Shown piece after piece: positions 30,115 to 45,070 of a stretch of DNA of 64,000 nt (positions are counted from its first letter, which is position 1; each line of letters begins with the position of its first letter). The position numbers were made by a program, and so were the translations under genes. This DNA comes from Candidatus Omnitrophota bacterium (GTDB lineage: Bacteria; Omnitrophota; Gorgyraeia; Gygaellales; Profunditerraquicolaceae), in assembly GCA_028715785.1 (NCBI GenBank), contig JAQURC010000001.1:12766-76765 (forward strand). Reading direction: 5' to 3'. The notes below the pieces were generated by a model, which was not told the DNA's origin, did no database searches, and was given only the letters and a program-made list of their open reading frames with translations.

Positions 30115-30197
30115 TACCGGGAGAGGGACTTGAACCCACATGAGCTTGCGCTCGGCAGCTTTTGAGGCTGCTGCGTCTGCCATTTCGCCATCCCGGC
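30115..30197 (-). tRNA. tRNA-Leu (anticodon CAA)
   Basis: Reverse complement GCCGGGATGGCGAAATGGCAGACGCAGCAGCCTCAAAAGCTGC...GTGGGTTCAAGTCCCTCTCCCGGTA. Anticodon loop CTCAAAA. Long variable arm. TTCAAGT T-loop. Discriminator A. No encoded CCA. Confidence 0.75.
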
Positions 30198-30210
30198 ATA
30201 TATTTTTAAG

Positions 30211-30239
30211 TTGACGCTAAGCATTTTATATTCTAAAAT
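30211..30239 (+). promoter_or_regulatory. Sigma70-like promoter for tRNA-Ala (TTGACG-N17-TAAAAT)
   Basis: Consensus-like boxes with 17-nt spacing, ~25 nt upstream of the tRNA. Confidence 0.45.
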
Positions 30240-30263
30240 AGCAAAGGTCAATACATAAATTTT

Positions 30264-30339
30264 GGGGCTGTAGCTCAGCTGGGAGAGCACTTGCATGGCA
30301 TGCAAGGGGTCAGGAGTTCGATCCTCCTCAGCTCCACCA
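30264..30339 (+). tRNA. tRNA-Ala (anticodon GGC) with encoded CCA
   Basis: GGGGCTGTAGCTCAGCTGGGAGAGC...CTTGCATGGCATGCAAG...GGTTCGATCC...CAGCTCCACCA. G3:U70 alanine identity pair present. Confidence 0.85.
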
Positions 30340-33676: not shown

Positions 33677-34385
33677 GGGGGACGTCCTCTTAGGGGACAC
33701 CCTTATATTAAAATAATTGTTAGAAGCGGCCTCTTTTTACGTCAATTAAAGTAAAAGGAGGATTTTTTATGCCAAGAAAAGCGCGAGAGTTGATTGACGG
33801 GGGACATTACCATGTTGTAACCAGGGGGATTGATTGTAGGAGATTATTTAGGGATGAAACAGATAACCAGTATTTTTTAGACATCATGGCTGCTAATCTG
33901 CCGAAATTCAAAATTTCAATTTTTCATTATTGTCTTATGGTAAACCACATTCATCTGTTGATTAAAGCCATAAGAGCAGCGGATCTGCCAAAGTTTATGC
34001 AGGTAGTTTTACAAGGATACGCTCATTATTTCAGAAAGAAATACCTTTCGGCAGGATTTATTTTTCAGAACCGATATAGAAGCCGGTTAATCGATAATGA
34101 TCTCTATCTCTTGGAATGCGGCCGGTATATCGAAAAGAACCCTCTGAGATCAAAAATAGTGTCAGAGCTTTCCAGATATCGCTGGAGCAGTTATCTGCTA
34201 TATGCAACTGGTAAACAAAATGACATAGTTAAGGCATTGGATCCTTTATATTTAGATTTAGCCAGTACAGACGAGAAACGCAGGGAGGCGTATGTTAATT
34301 ATGTCTTACAGGGGCGGCCATATGAAGATATTTTAGATAAAGAATTTCATATCAAATAGGGTGTCCCTTTTTAGGACGTCCCCCC
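33677..34385 (+). mobile_element. REP-associated tyrosine transposase (RAYT) unit: tnpA-REP gene flanked by 26-bp inverted repeats
   Basis: Left IR GGGGGACGTCCTCTTAGGGGACACCC (33677-33702). Right IR GGTGTCCCTTTTTAGGACGTCCCCCC (34360-34385). They are reverse complements apart from the central loop. Confidence 0.75.
33769..34359 (+). CDS. IS200/IS605-like Y1 (HuH) transposase of the REP-associated (RAYT) type
   Basis: 196 aa. HuH motif GHYHVVTRG. Second His cluster NHIHLLI. Catalytic Tyr region QNRYRSRLIDND...RYIEKNP. Typical RAYT size. Confidence 0.8.
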   Translation: MPRKARELIDGGHYHVVTRGIDCRRLFRDETDNQYFLDIMAANLPKFKISIFHYCLMVNHIHLLIKAIRAADLPKFMQVVLQGYAHYFRKKYLSAGFIFQNRYRSRLIDNDLYLLECGRYIEKNPLRSKIVSELSRYRWSSYLLYATGKQNDIVKALDPLYLDLASTDEKRREAYVNYVLQGRPYEDILDKEFHIK

Positions 34386-34748
34386 AATTAAAACATCCTT
34401 AATGTCAAAAAGCAGTCTTTGGTAATCGATGGGTTTTTCGACATAGACGGTGATCCCGCTTTTGGCGGCGACATGCTTGTCGATCTCTTCATGTTTTAAG
34501 GAGGTGGCGATAATCGGTGTATCGATAAACTCCGGCAGGCTTTTTATATCCTGGGCGACTTTAAAACCGCTTTCATCCGGCAGGACCAGATCAAGGAGTA
34601 TGCAATCCGGTTTCTCCGCCTTAACTTTTTCTACGCCTTCCTTGCCGCTGTAGGCAGTTACTACCTGGTAACCCGCCTTAAGTAACGCTTCCTTATTTTC
34701 CTTGGCGATGTTGTAATCATCGTCAATGATCAGGATTTTCTTAGGCAT
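34371..34748 (-). CDS. Single-domain response regulator (CheY-like receiver)
   Basis: MPKKILIIDDD...ILLDLVLPDESG...ATSLKHE receiver motifs. Start chosen at MPKK, not the longer ORF-track frame. The stop overlaps the RAYT right IR. Confidence 0.75.
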   Translation of the reverse strand: MPKKILIIDDDYNIAKENKEALLKAGYQVVTAYSGKEGVEKVKAEKPDCILLDLVLPDESGFKVAQDIKSLPEFIDTPIIATSLKHEEIDKHVAAKSGITVYVEKPIDYQRLLFDIKDVLIGGTS

Positions 34749-34890
34749 AATTAAATTATACACTAAAAAACCCATGATTACAATTAGATAAGGCCCTGTT
34801 TCCCGATTGGCTGGGAAACAGTTTCTCATTCGATAGTTAGATTATGGGGTTTTGTGCGTCTATTGAAGCGGAAAGGAGAGCCAAAGCGGC

Positions 34891-35220
34891 ATGTTTAATT
34901 TTACCCCGGAAGAAAGAAAGGTCATTCTGTTCATTTTAGGGCTGGCGTTTTGCGGGCTGGCGTTAAGTAATTTAGCCAAAGCCGGCTGCCGCATCGAGAG
35001 AATAGTTTGTCCGCAAGTCCAATTAGCCAGAATAAACCTTAATCAAGTAACGTTGGAAGAATTAACCCGGTTTAAATGCGTCTCGGCGAAATTGGCTCAA
35101 GCCATCATAGAGCGCCGTAACCTGGGTAAAAAATTTGCCAGCTTAGAGGAGCTCAAAGAGGTTAAAGGGATAGGGGATAAACGCTACGAGAAATTAAAGG
35201 AGGTATTCTTTATCGAATGA
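34891..35220 (+). CDS. comEA: ComEA-like helix-hairpin-helix DNA-binding competence protein
   Basis: N-terminal TM. INLNQVTLEELTRFKCVSAKLAQAIIERRN and ELKEVKGIGDKRYEKLK HhH motifs. Confidence 0.7.
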   Translation: MFNFTPEERKVILFILGLAFCGLALSNLAKAGCRIERIVCPQVQLARINLNQVTLEELTRFKCVSAKLAQAIIERRNLGKKFASLEELKEVKGIGDKRYEKLKEVFFIE

Positions 35221-36728
35221 AACGCCCTCTTGCGGCCCTGACCGTATTTTATTGCCTAGGGATTATTCTAGCCGACCTTATGCCGGCAGGCTTGCGGATA
35301 ATTATGGCAGCAGGTGTAATTATTTTTTTTGCGGCAAGCTTATTGAGGGTAAAAAATTATATATTTGCGGCCTTACTGTTATTTTTAGCGCTGCTTTTCG
35401 GGTATTTAAGCTTAAAAAATTCCTGCCAATTGCCTAAATGCCATATCGCCAAATTAATTCCCTATAAAGCTGAGTCTGTTTCAGTGGTAGGCGTTATTGA
35501 TAATGATCCTATCTACCAGGACAGAAATGTATCCTTTATCCTTAAGACAGAAAAAGTGGGAATAGGCGACTTTTGGCAGAAGGCCTGTGGTAAGATTTTG
35601 GTCAGGGTTTTTAAAAAAGAGGCATTTTTTTATGGGGATAGATTATTTTTAAGAGGGAATTTATATCGACCATTTTCTTTCTCAAAGGGATTTGATTATA
35701 GGAATTACCTAAAACATCAGAATATCTACCTTATCCTTAGCCTAGGAAAAGATAGCGGCATGGTTAAGCATCTGGAGAAAAATGCCGGTAATTCCGTATT
35801 ATCTTTTTCCTTTAAGATAAAGCACCGATTCAGGGAGGTAATTATTAAGAATCTATCCCCTTTCTCGGCAGGCATAATGAATGCCCTTATCTTAGGAGAT
35901 AGGCAGGATTTGTCTCAGCATTTGTTGGATATTCTAATGAAATTAGGCACCATTCACATAATTGCAATCTCAGGATTTAATGTAGGAATAGTTGCTTTTA
36001 TAATCTTATTAATTTTAAAAATAATAAAAATCCCCAGAAAACCGCGCTATATCTTTACGATATTGTTGTTGATTATTTATTGCGTTCTAACCGGCGCAAG
36101 CCCACCGGTAGTGCGCGCAACGGTTATGGCGGTTATTTTCCTTTGTGCCTATTTTTTTGAGCGAGAGGTGGATATTTACAATTCCCTGTCACTTGCCATA
36201 TTAATAATACTTGGGGTTAACCCTTGGCAGATTTTTGAGATTAGTTTTCAACTTTCATTCTTAAGCGTGATTTCTATTGTCTGGCTTACGCCCAAAATTA
36301 AATCCATATTTCCAGAAAAGTTAGATAAAATACCGTGGCTGCGTTTTCTAATTTTAACATTCTCTGTATCATTCGCAGCCTGGATTGGACTCTTACCTTT
36401 AATTGCCTATTACTTTAGGACTTTCACGACCATTACCGTATTGGCAAATATGATTATTGTCCCTTATTCGGCTGTTATTACAACTACAGGGTTTAGTTTT
36501 GCGCTGATCGGCATATTAATTCCTCCTTTGGCCCCTATCTTCGCAGTGACCAATGAGTTGCTTATCTTAATATTATTTAGGATTCATTATTTCTTAGTCG
36601 GCATCCCCGGAGCATATTTTAAGCTGCCCAACATATCTTTTGTTTACGTTCTTCTTTATTACATCCTGCTTGCGTCAATTTTTAATTTCCCTAAGTTTTA
36701 TTTTAATAATAGGTTGCATAAAAAGTAG
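35217..36728 (+). CDS. comEC: ComEC/Rec2 DNA internalisation channel (competence domain only, no C-terminal metallo-beta-lactamase domain)
   Basis: Polytopic membrane protein with the Competence-domain pattern (IAISGFNVGIVAF...). 4-bp overlap with comEA. Confidence 0.75.
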   Translation: MKRPLAALTVFYCLGIILADLMPAGLRIIMAAGVIIFFAASLLRVKNYIFAALLLFLALLFGYLSLKNSCQLPKCHIAKLIPYKAESVSVVGVIDNDPIYQDRNVSFILKTEKVGIGDFWQKACGKILVRVFKKEAFFYGDRLFLRGNLYRPFSFSKGFDYRNYLKHQNIYLILSLGKDSGMVKHLEKNAGNSVLSFSFKIKHRFREVIIKNLSPFSAGIMNALILGDRQDLSQHLLDILMKLGTIHIIAISGFNVGIVAFIILLILKIIKIPRKPRYIFTILLLIIYCVLTGASPPVVRATVMAVIFLCAYFFEREVDIYNSLSLAILIILGVNPWQIFEISFQLSFLSVISIVWLTPKIKSIFPEKLDKIPWLRFLILTFSVSFAAWIGLLPLIAYYFRTFTTITVLANMIIVPYSAVITTTGFSFALIGILIPPLAPIFAVTNELLILILFRIHYFLVGIPGAYFKLPNISFVYVLLYYILLASIFNFPKFYFNNRLHKK

Positions 36729-36889
36729 CCTTGTAGAGCGGAGTTTTATTTGAATAAGGTGTATGTAAGTGGTAAAATACAGCCATAAATATTATAACTT
36801 TCGGTTGGCCGTTGGTTGCGGCGGCTCGGGATGGCGATAAAACAGCCTTTTAATTCCTGATAAAACATGCTTAAGCTAAAACCAGGGTT

Positions 36890-37190
36890 TCAATATGCGG
36901 ATAGAAAAGAAATAAGCTTGAAAGGGGGTTGAAAATATTATTTTCCTGGGGGGTGTCGGATGCGCTGGATTTGACGCAGAAAGCAAGGGCATCCTAAGAA
37001 AAATATTACAAAAGGAGGCAGATTTATTTTTCATTTTGGGCGACCTTGTATGTTCGGGTACCGTATATTTATAACCGGCGGAGGCGGAGCGAGAATCTAC
37101 GAATTAGAAAAAGATAGGTTAAGGTCACGCCATGCCATAAGGCTGGATTTAGAGAATGATGATGCGGTAATTTTTGAAGTTATGCCTATT
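36890..37190 (+). pseudogene. Possible decayed calcineurin-like metallophosphoesterase gene remnant
   Basis: No ORF >60 aa in 470 bp of GC-elevated sequence. Frame fragments read MRIEKK*, ...KEADLFFILGDLVCSGTVYL* (GDxxxxG phosphoesterase-like) and ARIYELEKDRLRSRHAIRLDLENDDAVIFEV. A G6 homopolymer sits at the frame break. Confidence 0.25.
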
Positions 37191-37195
37191 ATATT

Positions 37196-37789
37196 ATGAA
37201 GAAAATACTTTTTCTGGCTGTTATTTTAATATTAATTTGCGCGGGAACCTCGCTTCTTTACCATAATACTCAACAAGCGGATATAAATTATTATCAAGGC
37301 CGTAGATTATTTGAAAAGGGCAAGTTCGAACAGGCAATGCAATTTTTTCATAAGGCTTCTGACGTAGAGCCATCACGGCTCGATGTGCTTAAAGATTTGG
37401 CTTATACCTACCAGTGGACGGGTGAATATGAGAAAGCAGCAAGTATCTTTCAACAAATTCTTTCCCTTAAGCCGCATGATAACGAGATAAAAAAATCCTT
37501 AGCCCAGACTTTAAGTTGGCGGAAAGAATACGAGAAAGCCATCCGGCTTTATAAAGAGGTTATCGCAGACTCAAATAGCCTTGATGCCAAGAGACAATTG
37601 GCCGAAGTCTATATATGGAATAATCAGTTTAAAGAAGCCAAGGAAATTCTGGCTGAGATTTTAAAGATAGCTCCCCAAGACAGGAAAGCGAAATTCTTGC
37701 TTGCCAAAGCCATGCAGTATTCCGGCCAGGCAGAACAGGCTATTAAGATCTACAAAGAGCTCTTAGAGGAGAGGAATAGAGATGAATAA
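37196..37789 (+). CDS. TPR-repeat protein (N-terminal TM/signal anchor)
   Basis: Multiple 34-aa TPR units (YYQGRRLFEKGKFEQAMQFF...). Confidence 0.7.
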   Translation: MKKILFLAVILILICAGTSLLYHNTQQADINYYQGRRLFEKGKFEQAMQFFHKASDVEPSRLDVLKDLAYTYQWTGEYEKAASIFQQILSLKPHDNEIKKSLAQTLSWRKEYEKAIRLYKEVIADSNSLDAKRQLAEVYIWNNQFKEAKEILAEILKIAPQDRKAKFLLAKAMQYSGQAEQAIKIYKELLEERNRDE

Positions 37790-39416
37790 AAGAAGAGCCG
37801 GCAGCCATAAAAAAGAAATTTTTATTCTGGTTATTTTGTGTATTTTAATCAGCTTTGCTCTTGCATGGGCAGCTGACATTGAAACAAAAGAAATCAAAAG
37901 ATCCCTGGCAGAAGCTTATGTGGCTAGCGGAGATTACGCGCAGGCGGAAAAGATCCTTAAAGGCCTTATTAAAAATGACCCTCGAAACCTGGAAGCCAAA
38001 ATTTCCCTTGCGGACTTTTTCGCCTATAAACATGAGTTCGATAAAGCCGTCATTTTATATAAAGAGATTCTTAACGCGAAAAAGGATTTGGAAATTAAGA
38101 AAAAACTGGCAGATGTCTTAAGTTGGGATAAAAGATACGCGGAATCTTTGGAGTTGTATGATGAAATACTTAAGGAGAAAGAGGATGTCGGGGCAGGATT
38201 GCAGAAGGCGCGTGTCTTGGGTTGGGAAAGAAGATATGCGGAGTCGCTGAAAGAATACCATCGCATATACGAAGCCAGCCGCAATGAGCTGATTGGATTG
38301 GAAATGAAAGCAAAAGAGGCATATTGGAATAACCGGGTAAAAAGCGCCGCAAGCCATTATAACGAACTTATCAAAAATGATCCCGCTAATCTTGAGGCTA
38401 TGTTTGATTTAAGCCAGACATATGCTTATCAGTCTATGTGGAAGGATGCCCTTCAGGCATACCAGAGGATACTTGATATATCGCCTACTCATTTCAGGGC
38501 CAAGGAAGGATTAAAAAAGGCAAAGCTTATATCAGAACATTGTTCTTTAAAGTCTGGATACGAATTTTTTGAAGCTGACAGCACCGGCAGGGATCAGGAT
38601 ATTAGAAGGAGCAGTTTTTTTAATGAGTTCAATTATCCGCTGAATTATAATCTTAGCCTTAGCGCCGTATACCGGTTAACCTACAGGAGCTTTGCCGATT
38701 TTAGCGGCCTCTTGGAAAATGAGTGGAGGATAAAAGCGTCCTATATTAATAACCCGGACTGGCGGCTTGATGGATTTTATGATTTTATTGTTTATAACAG
38801 AGATATAAATACCATGCATACTTTTGGAGCAAGCTACAATTTTAGGATCTTTGATTACGGGATCTCCAATTTTTCTTATGAGAGGGAAAGGCTTGAAAAT
38901 AACAGTACCGTTATCAGGGGCAGGTTTTACAGCGATAATTATAAAGAGCGGCTGGATATGGAGATTAATAAAAGGCTTAAATTGGGGATGGATTACCTGT
39001 TTGCCAGTTATTCAGACGGCAATTACAAGCTTGAGCCGGGAATGGATCTTTTGTATTATTTTTCCCTTGATCCAAAGAGGCTCACGGTTAAATACAGGTA
39101 TTTCTATAATAATTTCGATAAGAAGGTGAGCGATTATTTCTCGCCCAAAGGTTTTTCTACGAATTCTCTGGCATTCAATTGGAGGCATTTTTTAAACAAG
39201 GAAGAGATATTTTTCGGCGCCGATGACCTTTATTATGGTCTGGGTTATGAAATTACAGTGGATTCCAAGAATGTGGTAGGCAATAAGTTCAGCGCGGAGC
39301 TAAATTGGGACATCAGTAAAAGTCTAAACATCAATATAAAAGGATCGGTGGTAAAATCCAGCTCAAACGTTTATAAGGATAAAAATATAATTACGGCAGT
39401 AAAATATTATTTCTAA
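37782..39416 (+). CDS. TPR-containing outer-membrane beta-barrel export protein (BcsC/PgaA-like)
   Basis: N-terminal TPRs. C-terminal ~300 aa of alternating Tyr/Phe-rich beta-strands ending in ...AVKYYF (C-terminal Phe, OMP signature). Confidence 0.6.
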   Translation: MNKRRAGSHKKEIFILVILCILISFALAWAADIETKEIKRSLAEAYVASGDYAQAEKILKGLIKNDPRNLEAKISLADFFAYKHEFDKAVILYKEILNAKKDLEIKKKLADVLSWDKRYAESLELYDEILKEKEDVGAGLQKARVLGWERRYAESLKEYHRIYEASRNELIGLEMKAKEAYWNNRVKSAASHYNELIKNDPANLEAMFDLSQTYAYQSMWKDALQAYQRILDISPTHFRAKEGLKKAKLISEHCSLKSGYEFFEADSTGRDQDIRRSSFFNEFNYPLNYNLSLSAVYRLTYRSFADFSGLLENEWRIKASYINNPDWRLDGFYDFIVYNRDINTMHTFGASYNFRIFDYGISNFSYERERLENNSTVIRGRFYSDNYKERLDMEINKRLKLGMDYLFASYSDGNYKLEPGMDLLYYFSLDPKRLTVKYRYFYNNFDKKVSDYFSPKGFSTNSLAFNWRHFLNKEEIFFGADDLYYGLGYEITVDSKNVVGNKFSAELNWDISKSLNINIKGSVVKSSSNVYKDKNIITAVKYYF

Positions 39417-39418
39417 CT

Positions 39419-40945
39419 ATGAAGTTAAATAAAATAGCCGTTTTCAATTTATTGCCTGTTTTTACCCTGATTGCCGTCTTAATTTATATTATTATCAGGG
39501 TGGGTTTATTTTTTATCGGCAGTTATTCAATAATAGACAGGGTTTTCGCTGTCATACTGATACTGGGGGATTTTTTTGTTCTTCTGCACAGCATTGGTTA
39601 TGCCTTGAATATTTTGAGGGTTGTCCCCGGCAAAAAAGGAAATTTAGCCGATGAAGCATCCGCAAAGGAAAAGTGGGAAGACTCGCCGCCGGTAGCCATC
39701 TTGGTTGCTGCCCGGCATGAGCCAAAAGAGGTTTTGGACGATACTTTTATGACGCTTTACAATCTTAATTACAGGAATAAAACAGTTTATTTCCTTGATG
39801 ACAGCTCCGAGGAAGAATATAAAAGAGAAGCTGAAGAATTAAGCAAGGAATATAATCTAAAACTTTTTAGAAGGGAACAAAGGCACGGCGCCAAGGCCGG
39901 GATTATAAACGATTGCCTTAAAAATCTGGCGGAGAAATACGTGGTTATTTTTGACGCTGACCAGAACCCTCTTCCGGATTTTTTGGGAGATCTCGTGCCG
40001 ATAATGGAGCAAAATGAAAGGCTTGGTTTTATACAGACACCCCAGTTTTACTCAAACATAGAAGAGACAAGAGTTGCCAGGGCTGCCGCATTTCAACAGG
40101 CGGTATTTTATGAATACATCTGCGAAGGAAAAGGTTCGGGCGGCGCGATGTTTTGTTGCGGAACCAATATTATTTTCAGGCGAGACGCTCTTTTAGATGT
40201 AGGCGGGCTTGATGAGTCTACGGTCACCGAGGATTTTGCCACTTCCGTTAAGCTGCATAGCCGCGGCTGGAAGTCGCTTTATTATAACCATGTATCCACC
40301 TTTGGGATGGCGCCCCAAGATCTCGTTGGTTATTTTAAGCAACAGTTCAGATGGGCAACAGGGACAATATCAGTGTTTAAAAAATTGCTCCGGAGATTCT
40401 TTACTCACCCCTTTTCCTTAAGGCCAATACAGTGGTGGGAATATTTTTTATCAAGTTCTTATTATTTGATAGGACTTGCTTTTTTCTGTTTGATGATTTG
40501 CCCGGTAGTATATCTTTTGTTTAAGGTGCCCTCATTTTTCGTCAAGCCGGAGATATATTTTGCGGCTTATTTACCTTACATCATCCTTTCAATGATGGTT
40601 TTTTATATTTTACTTGGTTCAAGAAGCTATAAGATAAAAGACTTATTTTTAGGCCAGCTGCTGGGGGTATGCACATTTTCTGTTTATATCAGGGCAGCAG
40701 TATCTGCTTTTTTAGGGGTTAAAACTACTTTTGGAATAACCGAAAAGACCAAAGGAAAGGCAACGCCGTATATAAAATTATGGCCTCAGCTAACTTTTAT
40801 GCTTTTAAATTTTATAGCCGCAGCCTGGGGTATAAATAGGTTTATCTATGAAAGAGAGCCGGCAATACTGGTTAACGGGTTCTGGGCTTTTTACCATTTT
40901 GGAATTTTATCCAGTATATTCTATTTTAACCAGGAAGCCAGATGA
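39419..40945 (+). CDS. Processive family-2 glycosyltransferase (cellulose/hyaluronan-synthase-like exopolysaccharide synthase), no PilZ domain
   Basis: YFLDDSSEE, VIFDADQNP (DxD), TVTEDFAT (TED) and QQFRWATG (QxxRW) motifs in order. 2+~5 TM segments. Confidence 0.8.
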   Translation: MKLNKIAVFNLLPVFTLIAVLIYIIIRVGLFFIGSYSIIDRVFAVILILGDFFVLLHSIGYALNILRVVPGKKGNLADEASAKEKWEDSPPVAILVAARHEPKEVLDDTFMTLYNLNYRNKTVYFLDDSSEEEYKREAEELSKEYNLKLFRREQRHGAKAGIINDCLKNLAEKYVVIFDADQNPLPDFLGDLVPIMEQNERLGFIQTPQFYSNIEETRVARAAAFQQAVFYEYICEGKGSGGAMFCCGTNIIFRRDALLDVGGLDESTVTEDFATSVKLHSRGWKSLYYNHVSTFGMAPQDLVGYFKQQFRWATGTISVFKKLLRRFFTHPFSLRPIQWWEYFLSSSYYLIGLAFFCLMICPVVYLLFKVPSFFVKPEIYFAAYLPYIILSMMVFYILLGSRSYKIKDLFLGQLLGVCTFSVYIRAAVSAFLGVKTTFGITEKTKGKATPYIKLWPQLTFMLLNFIAAAWGINRFIYEREPAILVNGFWAFYHFGILSSIFYFNQEAR

Positions 40946-41886
40946 GAAATTTATTTTGGATAGGAATCTTTGTTTTGGTTGTTGCAAGCGCCGCCGCGCT
41001 TATTTACCATGGAAGAACAGGCTCATATTGTTATACGGGAGCATTCTTGACGGATAACCCAGCCAAAGATGATATAACTAATTTTAAAAATAGGTATGGG
41101 AAAAAGCCGTTTCTGGTTATGGTTTTTATTGATTGGGATAAATTTTTAGATGACAGAGTGATAAAAGATGTCTATTCGCAAGGCAGTGTTTTATGCGTTA
41201 CCTGGGAACCCTGGAACGCGCAGACTCAAGAAGGCATTAATTTTGATGAGCTGTTAGCGGGAAAATATGATAAATACATAACTGATTTATCCTTGCAGCT
41301 TAAGAATATCGAAAAGGGTGTTTTTATCAGGTTTGGCCATGAAATGAACGGGAATTGGTATCCTTGGGCTGGAACTAAGATAGGCGGGGATAAGTTTATC
41401 GCGGCATATAAATATGTAAAAGACATATTTGATAAAACAGGCGCAATTAATGTAAAATGGGTTTTTTCCATAAACTGGGAGGACGCGCCCAAAGAAAATA
41501 ACTCCTTTGTATCGTATTATCCCGGCGACGCATACGTAGATTATATCGGCATAGACGGTTATAATTGGGGCAATACAAAGCCGTGGAGCAGGTGGCTGAG
41601 TTTCCGCGATATTTTCTTAAAGGTTTACAATACTATTGTTGAGAATTATAATAAGCCTGTATTAATAACGGAATTCAGCTCTACTGGTAAGGGGGGAGAT
41701 AAGGCAGGCTGGATTAAGGGGGCGATGAGCGAAATCAAGAAAATGAAAAAAATAAAGGCATTTGTCTTATTTAACGCCGACAAAGAGACAGATTGGAGTT
41801 TTCCGCATAACAGCGGATGCGCAGAGGAGCTTAAAAGGCAGCTGAAGAGCCCATATTTTATAGACATGCCGGGAGAAAACCTATGA
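40942..41886 (+). CDS. Glycoside hydrolase, GH26-like (beta-mannanase/mixed-linkage glucanase fold)
   Basis: RFGHEMNGNWYPW (acid/base Glu) and LITEFS (nucleophile Glu) blocks. N-terminal signal anchor. Confidence 0.6.
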   Translation: MRNLFWIGIFVLVVASAAALIYHGRTGSYCYTGAFLTDNPAKDDITNFKNRYGKKPFLVMVFIDWDKFLDDRVIKDVYSQGSVLCVTWEPWNAQTQEGINFDELLAGKYDKYITDLSLQLKNIEKGVFIRFGHEMNGNWYPWAGTKIGGDKFIAAYKYVKDIFDKTGAINVKWVFSINWEDAPKENNSFVSYYPGDAYVDYIGIDGYNWGNTKPWSRWLSFRDIFLKVYNTIVENYNKPVLITEFSSTGKGGDKAGWIKGAMSEIKKMKKIKAFVLFNADKETDWSFPHNSGCAEELKRQLKSPYFIDMPGENL

Positions 41887-42122
41887 TAAAAAAAGAAGAG
41901 CTGTTGAAATTCTTAAAAGAGGCCGAGGTATTGGAAGAAAAAAGCATACCTGTTTATACTAAACATCTTGACAGCACCTTATTTCTCTCCGGATTCAGTA
42001 AAGAGGAGCAGGAGGAACTAAAGAAAGTTCTTTTAATCCTGAAGAAAGGGTCAGAAGAACATAGAGAAATATACGAAGATTTAATTAATAAGATAAGGGA
42101 GTCCGCTAAAGATGTTTACTAA
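41883..42122 (+). CDS. Small hypothetical protein (helical, EExxH-like motifs)
   Basis: 79 aa. Overlaps flanking genes by 4 bp/11 bp, suggesting translational coupling inside the EPS operon. Confidence 0.35.
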   Translation: MIKKEELLKFLKEAEVLEEKSIPVYTKHLDSTLFLSGFSKEEQEELKKVLLILKKGSEEHREIYEDLINKIRESAKDVY

Positions 42123-42639
42123 AGAAGATTATAAGAAATACTTTGAACAGCTTGCCGGGATTGAAAGGCTTATGATATACCTTGTCAGGGACATGCTTCT
42201 TTTGATAGAAGATGAGGGGTTAAAGGATACGCTAAGCCGGATTGCAAGCGATGAAGTAAGGCATTATGAATATGTAAAGCAGTTATTTGACAGCCTCTTG
42301 TTAGGTGGCGAGCAAGACAAGCGGCAGTTTGTCCGCCGCCATTCATTAGGCAGAATGAAAATAAAAGTTGTGGGTAAAGATATCATTTTTGATGCATATT
42401 GCGCGAATATTTCCCAGACAGGAGTATGCATAGAATTTGAAGGGGGAAAAGCGCCCGAAGGCGATCTTGAGTTATGGATTGAGTTTTTTGATAAACAAGA
42501 ACCCCAGCATCATTTCGGCAGGATTGTGTGGTCTGCGCAAATAGATCCGGAATTGAGCGTGGGAAAGATAAATTATAAAGGAGGGTTAGAGTTTCAAGAA
42601 AAAGCGGCCTATTATGAAAATAATTTTAAAAAAAGCTAA
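42112..42639 (+). CDS. Stand-alone PilZ-domain (c-di-GMP receptor-like) protein
   Basis: C-terminal RRHSLGR...NISQTGVCI matches the PilZ RxxxR / (D/N)xSxxG motifs. Immediately downstream of the GT2 synthase locus. Confidence 0.55.
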   Translation: MFTKEDYKKYFEQLAGIERLMIYLVRDMLLLIEDEGLKDTLSRIASDEVRHYEYVKQLFDSLLLGGEQDKRQFVRRHSLGRMKIKVVGKDIIFDAYCANISQTGVCIEFEGGKAPEGDLELWIEFFDKQEPQHHFGRIVWSAQIDPELSVGKINYKGGLEFQEKAAYYENNFKKS

Positions 42640-42911: not shown

Positions 42912-43865
42912 ATGAAACGCATAATTTTAAGCTTGTTAATAATTTCCTTTTTGTCTATCCAGCCGGCATATTCTTACTGGATTTGGACTCCCAAAAGCGG
43001 CAAATGGGTAAACCCGAAAAGCCTGCCAAAGGATAATCCTAAAGAACAGTTTGCGTATGCCAAGTCTTATTTTGATAATAATAAATACGAAGAAGCAAAG
43101 CGTGAATTCCGTAAACTGCTTAAGGCTTATCCTAAGTCTGCTGAAGCCGCGGAAAGCCAGTATTATCTGGGTTTGGTAGAAGAGCAGCAGGGTAAATTAT
43201 ATGAAGCATTCCAGGCTTATCAAATGGTTATCGACAAATATCCTTTTAGCGAGCGCATCCAGGAGATCATTGAGAAGGAATATAAAATTGCCGAGAAATT
43301 TATGGCCGGGGAAAAACGTAAAGCATTGGGCATAGATTTGCCTGTGGATAACCCGGCGATCGAGATATTTGGGAAGGTGGTGGAAAATTCCACCTACGGG
43401 CCTCTGGCGCCAAAAGCGCAATATAAATTAGGCCTGGTCTTAAAAGGACTGCTGCGTTATTACGAGGCCGAAGAGGAATTTAATAAAGTGGTTTCCCGCT
43501 ATCCGGACAGCGAATGGGCATCGGCGGCAAAATTCCAGATCGCCTCCTGCCGGGCCAGCCTGTCCAAAGGCGCAGCTTACGACCAGGGCGCGGCGCAGGA
43601 GGCTAAAGAAAGGTTTGAGGATTTTGTAAAAGAGCATCCCGATGCCGTGCTTTCACTGGATGCGCAGAAAAACATCGATCAAATCCGGGAGAAGGAGGCG
43701 CAAGCCAGCTATGATATCGCCCGTTTTTATGAAAAACAAAGAGCCTTTGATTCGGCAAAGATCTATTATAATGACATCATCAATAACCACGCGGAAAGCC
43801 CCTGGGCCAAGGAAGCTTCGGCTAGGTTACAGATAATGGAGCAGAAAAATGAAAAAAAGAATTAA
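42912..43865 (+). CDS. bamD: Outer membrane protein assembly factor BamD-like TPR lipoprotein
   Basis: Signal peptide. TPR-like repeats (YYLGLVEEQQGKLYEAFQAYQMVIDKYPFSE...). Size and context with lptE. Confidence 0.6.
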   Translation: MKRIILSLLIISFLSIQPAYSYWIWTPKSGKWVNPKSLPKDNPKEQFAYAKSYFDNNKYEEAKREFRKLLKAYPKSAEAAESQYYLGLVEEQQGKLYEAFQAYQMVIDKYPFSERIQEIIEKEYKIAEKFMAGEKRKALGIDLPVDNPAIEIFGKVVENSTYGPLAPKAQYKLGLVLKGLLRYYEAEEEFNKVVSRYPDSEWASAAKFQIASCRASLSKGAAYDQGAAQEAKERFEDFVKEHPDAVLSLDAQKNIDQIREKEAQASYDIARFYEKQRAFDSAKIYYNDIINNHAESPWAKEASARLQIMEQKNEKKN

Positions 43866-44430
43866 ATTTTCTTTATTCCTGATTAGCGCATTTTGCCTCT
43901 TAACCGCTGTTTTAGCCGGTTGCGGCTATACCAGCCGCTCGATGATTTCCGGCAAATACCGGACAATCTACATCGCACCCTTCCTGAATAAAGTAGATAT
44001 AACTCAGGAGGCTTATTCCGCTAATAAATACCGAATTTACCGTCCGATGCTGGAAACGGATATTACCAAAAAAGTAATTAACAAGTATCTTTTTGACGGA
44101 AACCTGAAACCGATAAAGGAAGACCTGGCGGATTTAGCGCTCAAGGGGGAATTGATTGAATACCGTAAAGACCCTTTGAGTTATACTGCAAACGGCGAGG
44201 ATGTTACCGAATACCGCATCAATATCTATGTAAATTTAAGCCTCTGGGATAAAAAAGAAAATAAACTTGTTTGGGAAGAGAAGAACTTTAACGGCAACTA
44301 TTCTTATTTTGTCAGGACCTCAACGATAAATCCGGGAAATGTGGTTGTAGTATCCGAAGATACGGCGGTGACCAATGCTATCGAAGACCTTGCCCGCCGG
44401 ATTGTCGAGCGTACAGTTGAGCAATGGTAA
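43849..44430 (+). CDS. lptE: LPS-assembly lipoprotein LptE-like
   Basis: Lipobox LAGCGY. ~190 aa. Immediately upstream of holA as in the enterobacterial leuS-lptE-holA arrangement. Confidence 0.5.
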   Translation: MKKRIKFSLFLISAFCLLTAVLAGCGYTSRSMISGKYRTIYIAPFLNKVDITQEAYSANKYRIYRPMLETDITKKVINKYLFDGNLKPIKEDLADLALKGELIEYRKDPLSYTANGEDVTEYRINIYVNLSLWDKKENKLVWEEKNFNGNYSYFVRTSTINPGNVVVVSEDTAVTNAIEDLARRIVERTVEQW

Positions 44431-44431
44431 T

Positions 44432-45070
44432 ATGGTTTATTTACTTGTCGGCCAGGATGTGGCGGCTAAAGAAACCCAGCTTAAGAAAATAAAACAGGAA
44501 TCCCTTCCGAAAGAGCTGCAAGATTTCAATCTTGATACCTTATACGCTAAAGAAATAACTTTAAAAGATATCCAGGAGCGTCTTCTGGCCATTCCGCTAA
44601 AAAGCGCCAAAAGAATCGTAGTGATTAAAGACGCGCATTTTCTTAATGCGCAGTCCCGTAATTTCCTCTTGAGCTATGCCAAAAAACCCCATCAACAATT
44701 AATCCTGGTTTTGGATTTCCAGCAGTATGATTATAAGGATGAATTTATTAAGGGTATATCCGCGCATGGTTCGCTGCTGCGTTTTAAGGAGGTAACCAAT
44801 CCGGACACCTTCACTTTAAACCGGCAGATTGAATTAAGGCAAACCGATTATGCCCTGCGCATATTAAATCAGCTCCTTAAAGAGGGAGAGGCCCCGGAGC
44901 GTATCCTCGGAGGCTTGCGTTTTGCCTGGGAGAAGCAGGATATCCGGACTCAAGCAGCCAGAAGGAAGCTTAAGCTCCTGCTTAATTGCGATATAGAGAT
45001 AAAAACAGGCCGTTTAAAGCCTGCTTTTGCTTTGGAAAAATTAGTGGTAAACTTATGCGGATTTGCTTAA
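44432..45070 (+). CDS. holA: DNA polymerase III delta subunit (short form)
   Basis: MVYLLVGQD...IVVIKDAHFLN...LILVLDF pattern of HolA N-terminal domains. ATG at 44432 chosen. Confidence 0.55.
   Translation: MVYLLVGQDVAAKETQLKKIKQESLPKELQDFNLDTLYAKEITLKDIQERLLAIPLKSAKRIVVIKDAHFLNAQSRNFLLSYAKKPHQQLILVLDFQQYDYKDEFIKGISAHGSLLRFKEVTNPDTFTLNRQIELRQTDYALRILNQLLKEGEAPERILGGLRFAWEKQDIRTQAARRKLKLLLNCDIEIKTGRLKPAFALEKLVVNLCGFA

What the first reader, a model, noticed from the sequence alone, without database searches (positions are those of the whole stretch)
37196..42639. Exopolysaccharide synthase locus with a PilZ-less GT2 synthase, a GH26 hydrolase and a separately encoded PilZ protein
The locus contains a TPR protein, a TPR+beta-barrel outer-membrane exporter (C-terminal ...YYF), a processive GT2 with D, DxD, TED and QxxRW motifs, a GH26-like hydrolase, a small helical protein and a protein whose C-terminus carries PilZ motifs (RRHSLGR...NISQTG). 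Cellulose, alginate and Pel synthases normally carry the c-di-GMP-binding domain in cis. A split trans-acting PilZ receptor and a GH26 (mannanase/mixed-linkage glucanase family, not GH8) point to a non-cellulose polymer under c-di-GMP control.
Basis: partly seen in the sequence, partly recalled or inferred. Interest (0 to 1): 0.55.

Follow-up and report, generated by a model that had tools for sequence, protein, structure and literature searches.

The report
BcsB-less glucan secretion operon, iron-PilZ regulator
A six-gene operon in an uncultured Omnitrophota bacterium encodes a stripped-down machine for making and exporting a beta-glucan, probably a mixed-linkage one; it appears to be controlled by a two-piece iron-binding-type protein, one piece of which carries a c-di-GMP sensor, and the same uncharacterised operon recurs in many anaerobic bacterial phyla.

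Summary
Window 37196-42639 (+) holds six tightly packed genes:
- a TPR protein;
- a TPR plus 16-strand beta-barrel porin of the BcsC/PgaA/PelB class;
- a 508-aa BcsA-like GT2 synthase with all catalytic and channel motifs, but no PilZ domain and no BcsB partner;
- a GH26 enzyme 42% identical to CtLic26A, the only characterised lichenase I found cited for GH26;
- a 79-aa helical protein (s79);
- a 175-aa protein (s175) with a canonical PilZ domain.

New here:
- The operon is conserved across Omnitrophota, Elusimicrobiota, Planctomycetota, Desulfobacterota and other phyla.
- The 79-aa protein and the N-terminus of the PilZ protein are paralogous helix hairpins. Together they match di-iron ferritin-like/rubrerythrin four-helix bundles.
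- Their genes share a conserved 11-nt overlap.

Best reading: a BcsB-less, synthase-dependent beta-glucan system, probably mixed-linkage, gated in trans by a split ferritin-like/PilZ module. The polymer's identity, metal binding and the trans action are inferred, not shown. It is a new variant of a known kind, of moderate to high interest.

The parts
37196..37789 (+). TPR protein, 197 aa, with one N-terminal hydrophobic segment (residues 4-22). Probably the periplasmic TPR scaffold of the export porin. In relatives it is fused to the next gene.
   Evidence: Pfam TPR families. KD hydropathy scan. Fused TPR197+TPR-barrel proteins of 676-1334 aa occur in L005, L007, L010 and L015.
37782..39416 (+). 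Outer-membrane exporter, 544 aa. Signal/anchor helix plus about six TPRs (residues 8-252; nt 37803-38537), then a 16-strand beta-barrel (residues 255-543; nt 38544-39410). It ends in YYF.
   Evidence: AF2 with alignment A2: pLDDT 90.8, pTM 0.82, 16 strands. Foldseek hits: BcsC 9b8a E 2e-15, PgaA barrel 4y25 TMt 0.78, PelB 9h80_M, BcsC 6tzk.
39419..40945 (+). Processive GT2 synthase, 508 aa, BcsA-like. Motifs: DDS127-129, HGAKAG156-161, DAD179-181, QTPQ206-209, FCCGT245-249, TED270-272, QQFRW308-312 and gating-loop FGITEK438-443. It has two N-terminal and four to five C-terminal membrane helices. It has no PilZ domain.
   Evidence: Pfam/NCBIfam. PDB phmmer to BcsA 4hg6/5ej1, E about 1e-41, over BcsA residues 137-561. 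Invariant columns in A1. Hydropathy scan.
40942..41886 (+). GH26 glycoside hydrolase, 314 aa, with an N-terminal signal/anchor (periplasmic). It belongs to the lichenase (CtLic26A) branch. Predicted acid/base is E134 and nucleophile is E244.
   Evidence: PDB phmmer E 3e-56 to C. thermocellum CelH GH26 = CtLic26A (2vi0, 2bv9). HE and EF catalytic blocks are aligned. 42% identity over 255 residues.
41883..42122 (+). s79: 79-aa cytosolic helix hairpin, the first half of a split ferritin-like four-helix bundle. E18, Y25 and H60 are invariant; E19, H28 and S57 are conserved in more than 90% of sequences.
   Evidence: No Pfam hit alone. Paralogous to the N-terminus of the next protein (hhalign 91%, E 1e-6). 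Concatenated-pair profile hits di-iron bundles.
42112..42306 (+). N-terminal 65 residues of the 175-aa protein (the 's64' domain). This is the second helix hairpin, carrying the canonical half-site E18 ... E48-x-x-H51.
   Evidence: Alignment to Due Ferri DF1 ligand positions. E18 in 64/70, E48 in 57/70 and H51 in 63/70 sequences. The start codon lies inside the s79 stop region (ATGTTTACTAA). The same 11-nt overlap occurs in 42 of 52 pairs.
42319..42639 (+). PilZ domain of the 175-aa protein, with RxxxR (R71-R75, nt 42322-42336) and NxSxxG (N99-G104, nt 42406-42423). Predicted c-di-GMP receptor.
   Evidence: Pfam PF07238, 28.6 bits against cut-off 22.5. Motif conservation in 70 homologues. NCBI names the identical protein MDD5464780.1 'PilZ domain-containing protein'.

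Best explanation
The locus is one operon for a minimal synthase-dependent exopolysaccharide system of a Gram-negative Omnitrophota bacterium.

Shown by sequence or structure comparison:
- The 508-aa GT2 is a BcsA-type processive synthase. It keeps the catalytic motifs, the gating loop and the membrane-helix region that aligns with the channel part of BcsA. It lacks the region matching the first ~58 positions of the CelA model, the PilZ domain and any BcsB partner.
- The 197-aa TPR protein plus the 544-aa TPR/16-strand barrel form a BcsC/PgaA/PelB-type periplasmic scaffold and outer-membrane pore.
- The GH26 enzyme is exported and belongs to the lichenase branch.
- s79 and the N-terminus of the 175-aa protein are paralogous hairpins of the ferritin-like/rubrerythrin type.
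- The C-terminus of the 175-aa protein is a canonical PilZ domain.

Inferred:
- The synthase polymerises UDP-glucose and threads the chain through the inner membrane. The TPR/porin takes it across the periplasm and outer membrane.
- By analogy with BcsZ, PgaB, PelA and AlgL, the operon hydrolase cuts the operon's own polymer. The polymer is therefore most likely a (1,3;1,4)-beta-glucan, or at least a beta-glucan.
- s79 and the 175-aa protein form a 1:1 cytosolic heterodimer, a four-helix bundle with a di-metal site. This bundle docks the PilZ domain onto the synthase, so that c-di-GMP, and possibly O2, redox state or iron sensed at the metal site, opens the gating loop in trans.
For: Operon structure: genes overlap or nearly abut.

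Synthase: BcsA match with all motifs.

Exporter: 16-strand barrel with BcsC/PgaA/PelB as best structural matches.

GH26: E 3e-56 and 42% identity to CtLic26A, with both catalytic Glu conserved. CtLic26A is the only GH26 beta-1,3/1,4-glucanase cited in PMC10470212 and PMC6556568.

Synteny: the order TPR, TPR-barrel, GT2, GH26, s79, s64 recurs in 80 species-level loci from at least 7 phyla. GH26 lies within 8 kb in 58 of 71 loci, and 53 s79/s64 pairs were found.

Translational coupling: an identical 11-nt overlap joins s79 and s64 in 42 of 52 pairs.

PilZ: above Pfam cut-off, with motifs conserved in about 90% of 70 homologues. About 55 full-length fusion clusters at 50% identity exist.

Split bundle: the hairpins are paralogous. 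The pair profile hits the designed di-iron proteins DF1/DFsc (E 2e-6 to 9e-8), symerythrin, bacterioferritin, TM1526 and EncFtn. 29 of 34 concatenated pairs hit Pfam Rubrerythrin, best E 2e-9.

Links to c-di-GMP and to UDP-sugar supply:
- A stray s82/s162-PilZ pair sits next to a GGDEF gene in L088.
- A UDPGP-family gene sits directly upstream in the closest relative's locus, L002.
Against: - No experiment exists for any member of the family.
- The GT2 is equally distant (about 26-27% identity) from BcsA and from rhizobial BgsA-like synthases, so the sequence does not tell the linkage.
- The window's own s79+s64 concatenate scores only 16.9-17.7 bits for Rubrerythrin, below the 22.8 cut-off.
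- The s79 half has SxxH instead of ExxH.
- Many related loci have the short s64 without PilZ (22 of 71), or no s79/s64 detectable by BLAST (25 of 71). The module is therefore accessory, not essential.
- Physical contact between the module and the synthase is not shown.
- No GGDEF/EAL gene lies in the 64-kb window.
Confidence: 0.55

Rival explanations
1. This is a cellulose (beta-1,4-glucan) synthase operon of an unusual BcsB-less type. The GH26 enzyme simply plays the BcsZ role as an endo-beta-1,4-glucanase.
For: The best named matches of the GT2 are cellulose synthases (TIGR03030 at 221 bits; BcsA structures at E 1e-41). JGI annotates homologues as 'cellulose synthase (UDP-forming)'. The RiGT2 paper notes that models cannot separate cellulose synthesis from MLG synthesis (PMC10374906).
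Against: The score is far below the CelA equivalog cut-off (221 against 699 bits). There is no BcsB and no GH8 BcsZ. The hydrolase is in the GH26 lichenase branch, for which PMC10470212 cites beta-1,3/1,4-glucanase activity. Identity to BgsA-like MLG synthases is the same as to BcsA.
Confidence: 0.25
2. The s79/s64 bundle is a metal-free structural adaptor that merely tethers accessory domains (PilZ here) to the synthase. It does no redox or iron sensing.
For: In all 13 loci where the GT2 has a ~100-aa C-terminal extension, the partner s64 has lost H51 (replaced by F/Y) and E18, yet the pair is retained. The s79 half-site is non-canonical (SxxH). The window pair is below the Rubrerythrin cut-off.
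Against: In the window's subtype the ligand set E18/H60 (s79) and E18/E48/H51 (s64) is invariant or conserved in more than 90% of sequences across phyla. It aligns residue-for-residue with the DF1 ligands E10/E36/H39. Such conservation is not needed for a plain helical adaptor.
Confidence: 0.3
3. s79 and the 175-aa PilZ protein are a general oxidative-stress or c-di-GMP module that only happens to sit beside the polysaccharide genes and does not act on the synthase.
For: Pairs can occur away from the synthase: next to a V4R-GGDEF gene (L088) and next to a GH162 gene (L089). Many synthase loci lack a detectable pair.
Against: 53 pairs lie immediately downstream of the GT2/GH26 genes in loci from several phyla whose flanking genes otherwise differ. 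In the window, the s79 start overlaps the GH26 stop by 4 nt. L087 has two tandem pairs directly after GT2-GH26.
Confidence: 0.12
4. The polymer is not a glucan but a beta-mannan or beta-xylan, as expected from the bulk of family GH26.
For: The Pfam GH26 model is dominated by mannanases. GH26 also holds beta-1,3-xylanases and mixed-linkage xylanases (PMC10470212).
Against: Mannanases and xylanases match about 45-50 orders of magnitude worse than the lichenase. The GT2's nearest characterised relatives are glucan synthases.
Confidence: 0.07

Closest known systems
Bacterial cellulose secretion system (BcsA-BcsB-BcsZ-BcsC)
   Same: A processive GT2 synthase-translocase with D, DxD, TED and QxxRW motifs and an FxxTxK gating loop. 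A periplasmic hydrolase is encoded in the operon. The outer-membrane porin is a TPR plus 16-strand barrel. Control by c-di-GMP through a PilZ domain is expected.
   Different: No BcsB. The synthase lacks the region matching the first ~58 positions of the CelA model and the C-terminal PilZ domain. The hydrolase is GH26 (lichenase branch), not GH8. PilZ sits on a separate soluble protein fused to half of a ferritin-like bundle. The GT2 scores 221 bits against the 699-bit CelA cut-off.
Rhizobial mixed-linkage beta-glucan system BgsA-BgsB-TolC
   Same: A BcsA-like GT2 without a canonical cis PilZ domain. Activated by c-di-GMP. The product is MLG, which is what the lichenase-type GH26 suggests here.
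   Different: BgsA binds c-di-GMP in its own C-terminal domain. Export uses an HlyD-type adaptor (BgsB) and TolC, not a TPR porin. No hydrolase or ferritin-like genes are present. Identity is only about 27% (PMC5567048, PMC13438883).
Romboutsia ilealis RiGT2 (1,3;1,4)-beta-glucan synthase
   Same: A BcsB-independent BcsA-like synthase lacking the N-terminal helix that contacts BcsB. It shows that bacterial BcsA-like enzymes can make MLG.
   Different: It is from a Gram-positive bacterium, has a cis PilZ domain that did not bind c-di-GMP, and has no porin (PMC10374906).
Alginate Alg8/Alg44, Pel PelD, and E. coli BcsE-BcsRQ
   Same: Precedents for c-di-GMP receptors encoded separately from the glycosyltransferase, and for small cytosolic regulatory subunits of a synthase.
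   Different: From established knowledge, Alg44 is membrane-anchored with a periplasmic HlyD-like domain, PelD uses a degenerate GGDEF site, and BcsE uses a GIL domain. None has a ferritin-like partner. The 175-aa protein has no membrane segment.
Helix-hairpin di-iron proteins (encapsulated ferritin EncFtn, symerythrin, designed Due Ferri DF1)
   Same: A four-helix di-metal bundle assembled from two E...ExxH hairpins. The s64 half aligns with the DF1 ligands.
   Different: Here the two hairpins are different gene products (a heterodimer). One half-site is altered (SxxH plus extra H28/Y25). One hairpin is fused to PilZ. The genes sit in a polysaccharide operon.

Membership tests
BcsA cellulose synthase (TIGR03030 / NF008558) | GT2 catalytic motifs D, DxD, TED, QxxRW | tested here: met
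   DDS127-129, DAD179-181, TED270-272 and QQFRW308-312 are invariant in A1 and aligned to BcsA.
BcsA cellulose synthase (TIGR03030 / NF008558) | Membrane channel region and FxVTxK gating loop | tested here: met
   Alignment covers BcsA 4hg6 residues 137-561. FGITEK438-443 is present. Hydrophobic helices found.
BcsA cellulose synthase (TIGR03030 / NF008558) | C-terminal PilZ domain in the same polypeptide | tested here: not met
   The protein ends at residue 508, just after the last helix. There is no PilZ hit.
BcsA cellulose synthase (TIGR03030 / NF008558) | BcsB co-polymerase encoded alongside | tested here: not met
   None of the six operon genes, nor the flanking genes, has a BcsB-type assignment.
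BcsA cellulose synthase (TIGR03030 / NF008558) | Score above the curated equivalog cut-off | tested here: not met
   221.2 bits against 699.1 (TIGR03030); 138.8 against 992 (NF008558).
BcsC/PgaA/PelB-class exopolysaccharide porin | Periplasmic TPR array followed by a 16-strand C-terminal beta-barrel | tested here: met
   AF2 pLDDT 90.8, helices 8-252, 16 strands over 255-543. The best Foldseek matches are BcsC, PgaA and PelB.
BcsC/PgaA/PelB-class exopolysaccharide porin | Sequence membership in the BcsC or PgaA equivalog models | tested here: not met
   Only weak TPR-level hits, e.g. PgaA model at 23 bits against 367. The profile search of PDB finds TPR proteins only.
GH26, lichenase (CtLic26A) branch | GH26 fold signature with acid/base and nucleophile glutamates | tested here: met
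   Pfam GH26 at 38.6 bits against 20.2. E134 and E244 align with CtLic26A E109 and E222.
GH26, lichenase (CtLic26A) branch | Closer to the lichenase than to mannanases or xylanases | tested here: met
   E 3e-56 and 42% identity against best mannanase at 2e-9 and xylanase at 2.5e-4.
GH26, lichenase (CtLic26A) branch | Hydrolysis of (1,3;1,4)-beta-glucan | not testable with these tools
   Needs an enzyme assay.
PilZ c-di-GMP receptor (PF07238) | Pfam gathering score | tested here: met
   28.6 bits against 22.5, residues 70-144.
PilZ c-di-GMP receptor (PF07238) | RxxxR and [D/N]xSxxG binding motifs | tested here: met
   R71-R75 and N99-S101-G104. Conserved in 61-64 of 70 homologues.
PilZ c-di-GMP receptor (PF07238) | Binding of c-di-GMP | not testable with these tools
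   Needs ITC or DRaCALA.
Ferritin-like / rubrerythrin di-iron four-helix bundle | Significant match to family models | tested here: inconclusive
   The window pair concatenated scores 16.9-17.7 bits against cut-off 22.8. However, 29 of 34 family pairs match Rubrerythrin (best E 2e-9), and the pair profile hits di-iron bundles in PDB.
Ferritin-like / rubrerythrin di-iron four-helix bundle | Two E...ExxH half-sites | tested here: inconclusive
   The s64 half is canonical (E18, E48xxH51). The s79 half has E18/E19 and S57xxH60.
Ferritin-like / rubrerythrin di-iron four-helix bundle | Four helices in one chain | tested here: not met
   Split into two genes with an 11-nt overlap. This resembles EncFtn or DF1 hairpin dimers.
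BgsA-type MLG synthase | BgsB (HlyD adaptor) partner and a C-terminal c-di-GMP-binding domain | tested here: not met
   No HlyD-type gene in the operon. The GT2 has no C-terminal cytosolic domain. About 27% identity to the pSymB homologue.
Alg44-type trans PilZ co-polymerase | PilZ linked to a membrane anchor and a periplasmic HlyD-like domain | tested here: not met
   The 175-aa protein has no hydrophobic segment, and its other domain is a helical hairpin.

The most novel reading that the evidence does not exclude
A widespread, so far undescribed class of Gram-negative mixed-linkage beta-glucan secretion systems (GT2 without BcsB, TPR porin, lichenase-type GH26). Its synthase would be gated directly by a natural heterodimeric 'Due Ferri'-like di-iron sensor fused to PilZ, so that oxygen, redox or iron status and c-di-GMP are integrated at the enzyme itself in anaerobes.
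Probability: 0.22. Interest if true: 0.8.

Novelty: new variant of a known kind. Interest (0 to 1): 0.6.

Why it matters
- Bacterial mixed-linkage glucans are known only from Rhizobiales (BgsA) and from Romboutsia and its relatives. A third system, spanning many phyla, would change the view of how common this polymer is in anoxic sediments, groundwater and bioreactors.
- The synthase works without BcsB. A systematic operon survey assumed BcsB to be obligatory (PMC7112194), so this family was invisible to it.
- The split ferritin-like/PilZ pair would be a new kind of c-di-GMP effector.
- It would also be a natural counterpart of designed di-iron helix-hairpin proteins.
- The system is small enough (six genes) for heterologous reconstitution. 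A cultured species, Desulfobacter curvatus DSM 3379, carries the core cluster (L066).

Tried and rejected
1. Single-sequence AlphaFold2 of the 544-aa protein failed for the C-terminal half (pLDDT about 25). The run was repeated with an alignment.

2. A profile search of PDB with the 544-aa family found only TPR proteins. The barrel needed the fold comparison.

3. Idea tested: the ~100-aa C-terminal extension of the 608-aa GT2 paralogues is the same PilZ domain relocated.
- BLAST found nothing.
- Pfam PilZ scored 16.2 bits, E 0.014.
- hhalign gave 17% probability.
- The extension lacks RxxxR and DxSxxG.
- Conclusion: at best a degenerate PilZ-like domain. The idea is not supported.

4. Idea tested: the cis extension and s64-PilZ are mutually exclusive. 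The counts are 1/13 against 11/33, Fisher p = 0.13. This is suggestive only, and the loci are not independent.

5. Assigning the product from GT2 similarity failed. BcsA and BgsA-like proteins are both at about 26-27% identity.

6. Search for a c-di-GMP riboswitch or other RNA in the 5' intergenic region found nothing.

7. Search for GGDEF/EAL genes in the window found none.

8. Promoter and terminator scans were no better than shuffled sequence.

9. Literature searches for GH26 combined with cellulose synthase/BcsA, for Omnitrophota cellulose synthase, and for PilZ with rubrerythrin found no description of this system.

Full report
**What is there**

Window 37196-42639 carries six + strand ORFs:

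| Coordinates | Length | Short name |
|---|---|---|
| 37196-37789 | 197 aa | TPR protein |
| 37782-39416 | 544 aa | TPR-barrel protein |
| 39419-40945 | 508 aa | GT2 synthase |
| 40942-41886 | 314 aa | GH26 hydrolase |
| 41883-42122 | 79 aa | s79 |
| 42112-42639 | 175 aa | s175 |

- Neighbouring genes overlap by 8, 4, 4 and 11 nt, or are 2 nt apart. They form one operon.
- It lies between comEA/comEC (34891-36728) and bamD/lptE/holA (42912-45070).
- An identical TPR-barrel protein and an identical 175-aa protein are on record as MDD5464776.1 and MDD5464780.1 from a Candidatus Omnitrophota MAG.
- All close GT2 homologues are also from Omnitrophota.

**The synthase**

- The 508-aa protein matches GT2 families and Cellulose_synt.
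- It matches the CelA model TIGR03030 at 221 bits, far below the 699-bit cut-off. The match covers model positions 59-565 of 714.
- Against solved structures it aligns with Rhodobacter BcsA (4hg6, 5ej1) at E about 1e-41, over BcsA residues 137-561. That span includes the catalytic domain, the QxxRW helix, the gating loop and the C-terminal membrane helices. It stops before the BcsA PilZ domain.
- Motifs invariant in a family alignment: DDS127-129, HGAKAG156-161, DAD179-181, QTPQ206-209, FCCGT245-249, TED270-272, QQFRW308-312. In the gating loop FGITEK438-443, the residues F438, G439, T441 and K443 are invariant.
- A hydropathy scan finds two N-terminal and at least three strong C-terminal membrane segments.
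- No gene in the operon or its flanks resembles BcsB.
It fails three defining features of BcsA proper: a cis PilZ domain, a BcsB partner and the equivalog score.

**The exporter**

- Pfam sees only TPRs in the 197-aa and 544-aa proteins.
- A single-sequence structure prediction failed for residues 253-544.
- With a 48-sequence alignment (A2), AlphaFold2 gave pLDDT 90.8 and pTM 0.82. The model has helices 8-252 followed by 16 beta strands over 255-543.
- The best Foldseek matches in the PDB are E. coli BcsC (9b8a, E 2e-15), the PgaA barrel (4y25, TM-score 0.78 on the target, rmsd 4.1 Å), PelB of PelBC (9h80_M) and BcsC 6tzk.
- In relatives, the 197-aa TPR protein is fused to the barrel protein (676-1334 aa). 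The two window genes are therefore a split BcsC-like unit.

**The hydrolase**

- The Pfam GH26 score is modest (38.6 bits).
- A direct comparison with solved structures gives E 3e-56 to the GH26 module of Clostridium thermocellum CelH, i.e. CtLic26A. The HE (E134 against E109) and EF (E244 against E222) catalytic blocks align.
- Identity is 42% over 255 residues.
- The best mannanase scores E 2e-9 and the beta-1,3-xylanase E 2.5e-4.
- According to PMC10470212 and PMC6556568, GH26 holds mannanases, beta-1,3- and mixed-linkage xylanases, and a small lichenase branch represented by CtLic26A.
- The N-terminal hydrophobic segment (residues 4-22) places the enzyme outside the cytoplasm.

**The two small proteins**

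- s79 has no family hit. Residues 70-144 of the 175-aa protein pass the PilZ gathering score (28.6 against 22.5).
- The 175-aa protein carries R71-x-x-x-R75 and N99-x-S101-x-x-G104.
- Across 70 distinct homologues these positions are kept in 61-64 sequences.
- An exhaustive HMMER search of 1.84 billion representatives finds 82 relatives. About 55 are full-length fusions of 150-183 aa, and most of the rest are proteins of about 53-69 aa that match only residues 1-65.
- Profile comparison shows that s79 and residues 1-65 of the 175-aa protein (the 's64' domain) are paralogues (hhalign 91%, E 1e-6).
- A profile of 34 s79+s64 pairs joined in silico (A3) hits:
  - the designed di-iron helix-hairpin proteins DF1/DFsc (1mft E 2e-6, 2hz8 E 9e-8);
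  - symerythrin (E 1.4e-4);
  - bacterioferritin, the TM1526 di-iron protein and encapsulated-ferritin subunits.
- 29 of the 34 joined pairs match Pfam Rubrerythrin (best E 2e-9) and 13 match Ferritin_2. The window pair itself stays below the cut-off (17 bits against 22.8).
- The s64 residues E18, E48 and H51 align with the DF1 ligands. In s79, E18, Y25 and H60 are invariant, and E19, H28 and S57 are conserved in more than 90% of sequences.
- Neither protein has a membrane segment.
- The s64 start codon lies inside the end of s79 (ATGTTTACTAA). The same 11-nt overlap is found in 42 of 52 pairs from several phyla. This argues for coupled translation and a 1:1 complex.

**Distribution**

- A scan of one genome per GTDB species returned 528 relatives of the GT2. 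The best 80 loci come from Omnitrophota, Elusimicrobiota, Planctomycetota (Phycisphaerae), Desulfobacterota (including cultured Desulfobacter curvatus DSM 3379), Latescibacterota, Fibrobacterota, Sumerlaeota and others.
- The gene order TPR, TPR-barrel, GT2, GH26, s79, s64 recurs throughout.

Among 71 loci with at least 2.5 kb downstream sequence:

| Feature | Loci |
|---|---|
| GH26 within 8 kb | 58 |
| Plain GT2 plus s64-PilZ, as in the window | 11 |
| Plain GT2 plus short s64 | 22 |
| No s64 detected by BLAST | 25 |
| GT2 with a ~100-aa C-terminal extension | 13 |

- Of the 13 loci with the extension, 12 have a short s64. That s64 has lost H51 and E18.
- Two of these loci examined (L002/L003 and L005/L006) have a response-regulator gene directly after the pair.
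- The extension is only marginally PilZ-like and lacks the binding motifs.
- Pairs also occur in tandem after GT2-GH26 (L087), beside a V4R-GGDEF gene (L088) and beside a GH162 gene (L089).

**How it most likely works**

Shown:
- The domain identities listed above.
- The operon structure.
- The conserved synteny.

Inferred:
- The GT2 polymerises a UDP-sugar and translocates the chain. UDP-glucose is suggested by its nearest relatives, and a UDPGP-family gene sits directly upstream in the closest locus, L002.
- The TPR/porin conducts the chain out of the cell.
- The periplasmic GH26 trims or clears the polymer. In the cellulose, PNAG, Pel and alginate operons the resident hydrolase or lyase acts on the operon's own product (established knowledge). 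A lichenase-type enzyme therefore points to a (1,3;1,4)-beta-glucan.
- The s79/s175 heterodimer would bring a PilZ domain to the synthase. It would relieve gating-loop inhibition on binding c-di-GMP, as the cis PilZ domain does in BcsA.
- Its conserved di-metal ligands suggest a second input: O2, peroxide, redox state or iron. This would fit the anaerobic lifestyles of the host phyla.
- I put about 0.55 on this composite. The glucan-secretion core is much more likely than that. The MLG assignment stands at about 0.5-0.6, and metal sensing at about 0.4.

**Comparison and novelty**

- The system works like Bcs but is not a member. It has no BcsB, no cis PilZ domain, no GH8, and its score is below the equivalog cut-off.
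- It differs from rhizobial BgsBA-TolC in its export route and receptor. It differs from Romboutsia RiGT2, which is Gram-positive and has a cis PilZ domain (PMC5567048, PMC13438883, PMC10374906).
- A soluble PilZ domain fused to half of a ferritin-like bundle was not found in the searchable literature.
- A systematic operon survey required bcsB by design and would have missed this family (PMC7112194).
- I therefore rate it a new variant of a known kind, with interest 0.6.

Noticed in passing
L002/L003, L005/L006, L007, L014, L016, L019-L023, L031, L040, L046 (relatives, not the window): A sister subtype of the operon has a ~608-aa GT2 with a conserved ~100-aa C-terminal domain (motifs KFEYK, LPExL..GT..MCK, IFDG.V, GFET.IG). 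The domain is only marginally PilZ-like. Its s79/s64 partners have lost the metal ligands. In L002/L003 and L005/L006 a response regulator follows the pair, with Hpt, hybrid-kinase or hemerythrin genes nearby.
   Followed up: partly
L087 7881-9480; L088 3630-5573; L089 189-936: The s79/s64-PilZ pair behaves as a movable module. It occurs as two tandem copies after GT2-GH26 (L087), directly after a V4R-GGDEF diguanylate cyclase gene (L088), and beside a GH162 beta-1,2-glucanase-type gene (L089).
   Followed up: partly
window 39419-40945, residue Q300: The position aligned with BcsA E371 is Q in the window protein but E in the six homologues aligned in A1 (GMxPExL). From memory, E371 is the partner of PilZ R580 in the autoinhibitory salt bridge.
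   Followed up: no
window 34001-42000: G+C is 0.39-0.41 across comEC and the polysaccharide operon, against 0.42-0.49 in the rest of the window. The operon's flanks differ between relatives, so it may move as a unit.
   Followed up: no
window 33769-34359 (+): A 196-aa ORF with an IS200-like Y1 transposase domain (E 1e-13) lies between leuS and a response-regulator gene, about 3 kb upstream of the operon.
   Followed up: no
window 34371-34829 (-): A stand-alone response-regulator receiver protein (152 aa) lies on the opposite strand upstream of comEA/comEC. No link to the operon was established.
   Followed up: no
L002 4028-5410: In the closest relative's locus, a UDPGP-family (PF01704) nucleotide-sugar pyrophosphorylase gene sits directly upstream of the TPR gene. 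The window has no such gene at that place.
   Followed up: no
window 42112-42639 vs P0121: A second assembly carries a 170-aa version of the PilZ protein that is 100% identical over 96% of the query. The two records differ at one end.
   Followed up: no
L066 (Desulfobacter curvatus DSM 3379, NZ_KB892908.1): A cultured, publicly held strain carries the core cluster: three TPR genes, a 1059-aa TPR-barrel protein, a 543-aa GT2 and a 356-aa GH26. The contig ends about 0.3 kb after the GH26 gene (1.4 kb after the GT2), so the presence of s79/s64 could not be judged.
   Followed up: no
window 30115-30336: Two divergently oriented tRNA genes lie between an unassigned 251-aa ORF and a xylose-isomerase-like TIM-barrel gene.
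   Followed up: no
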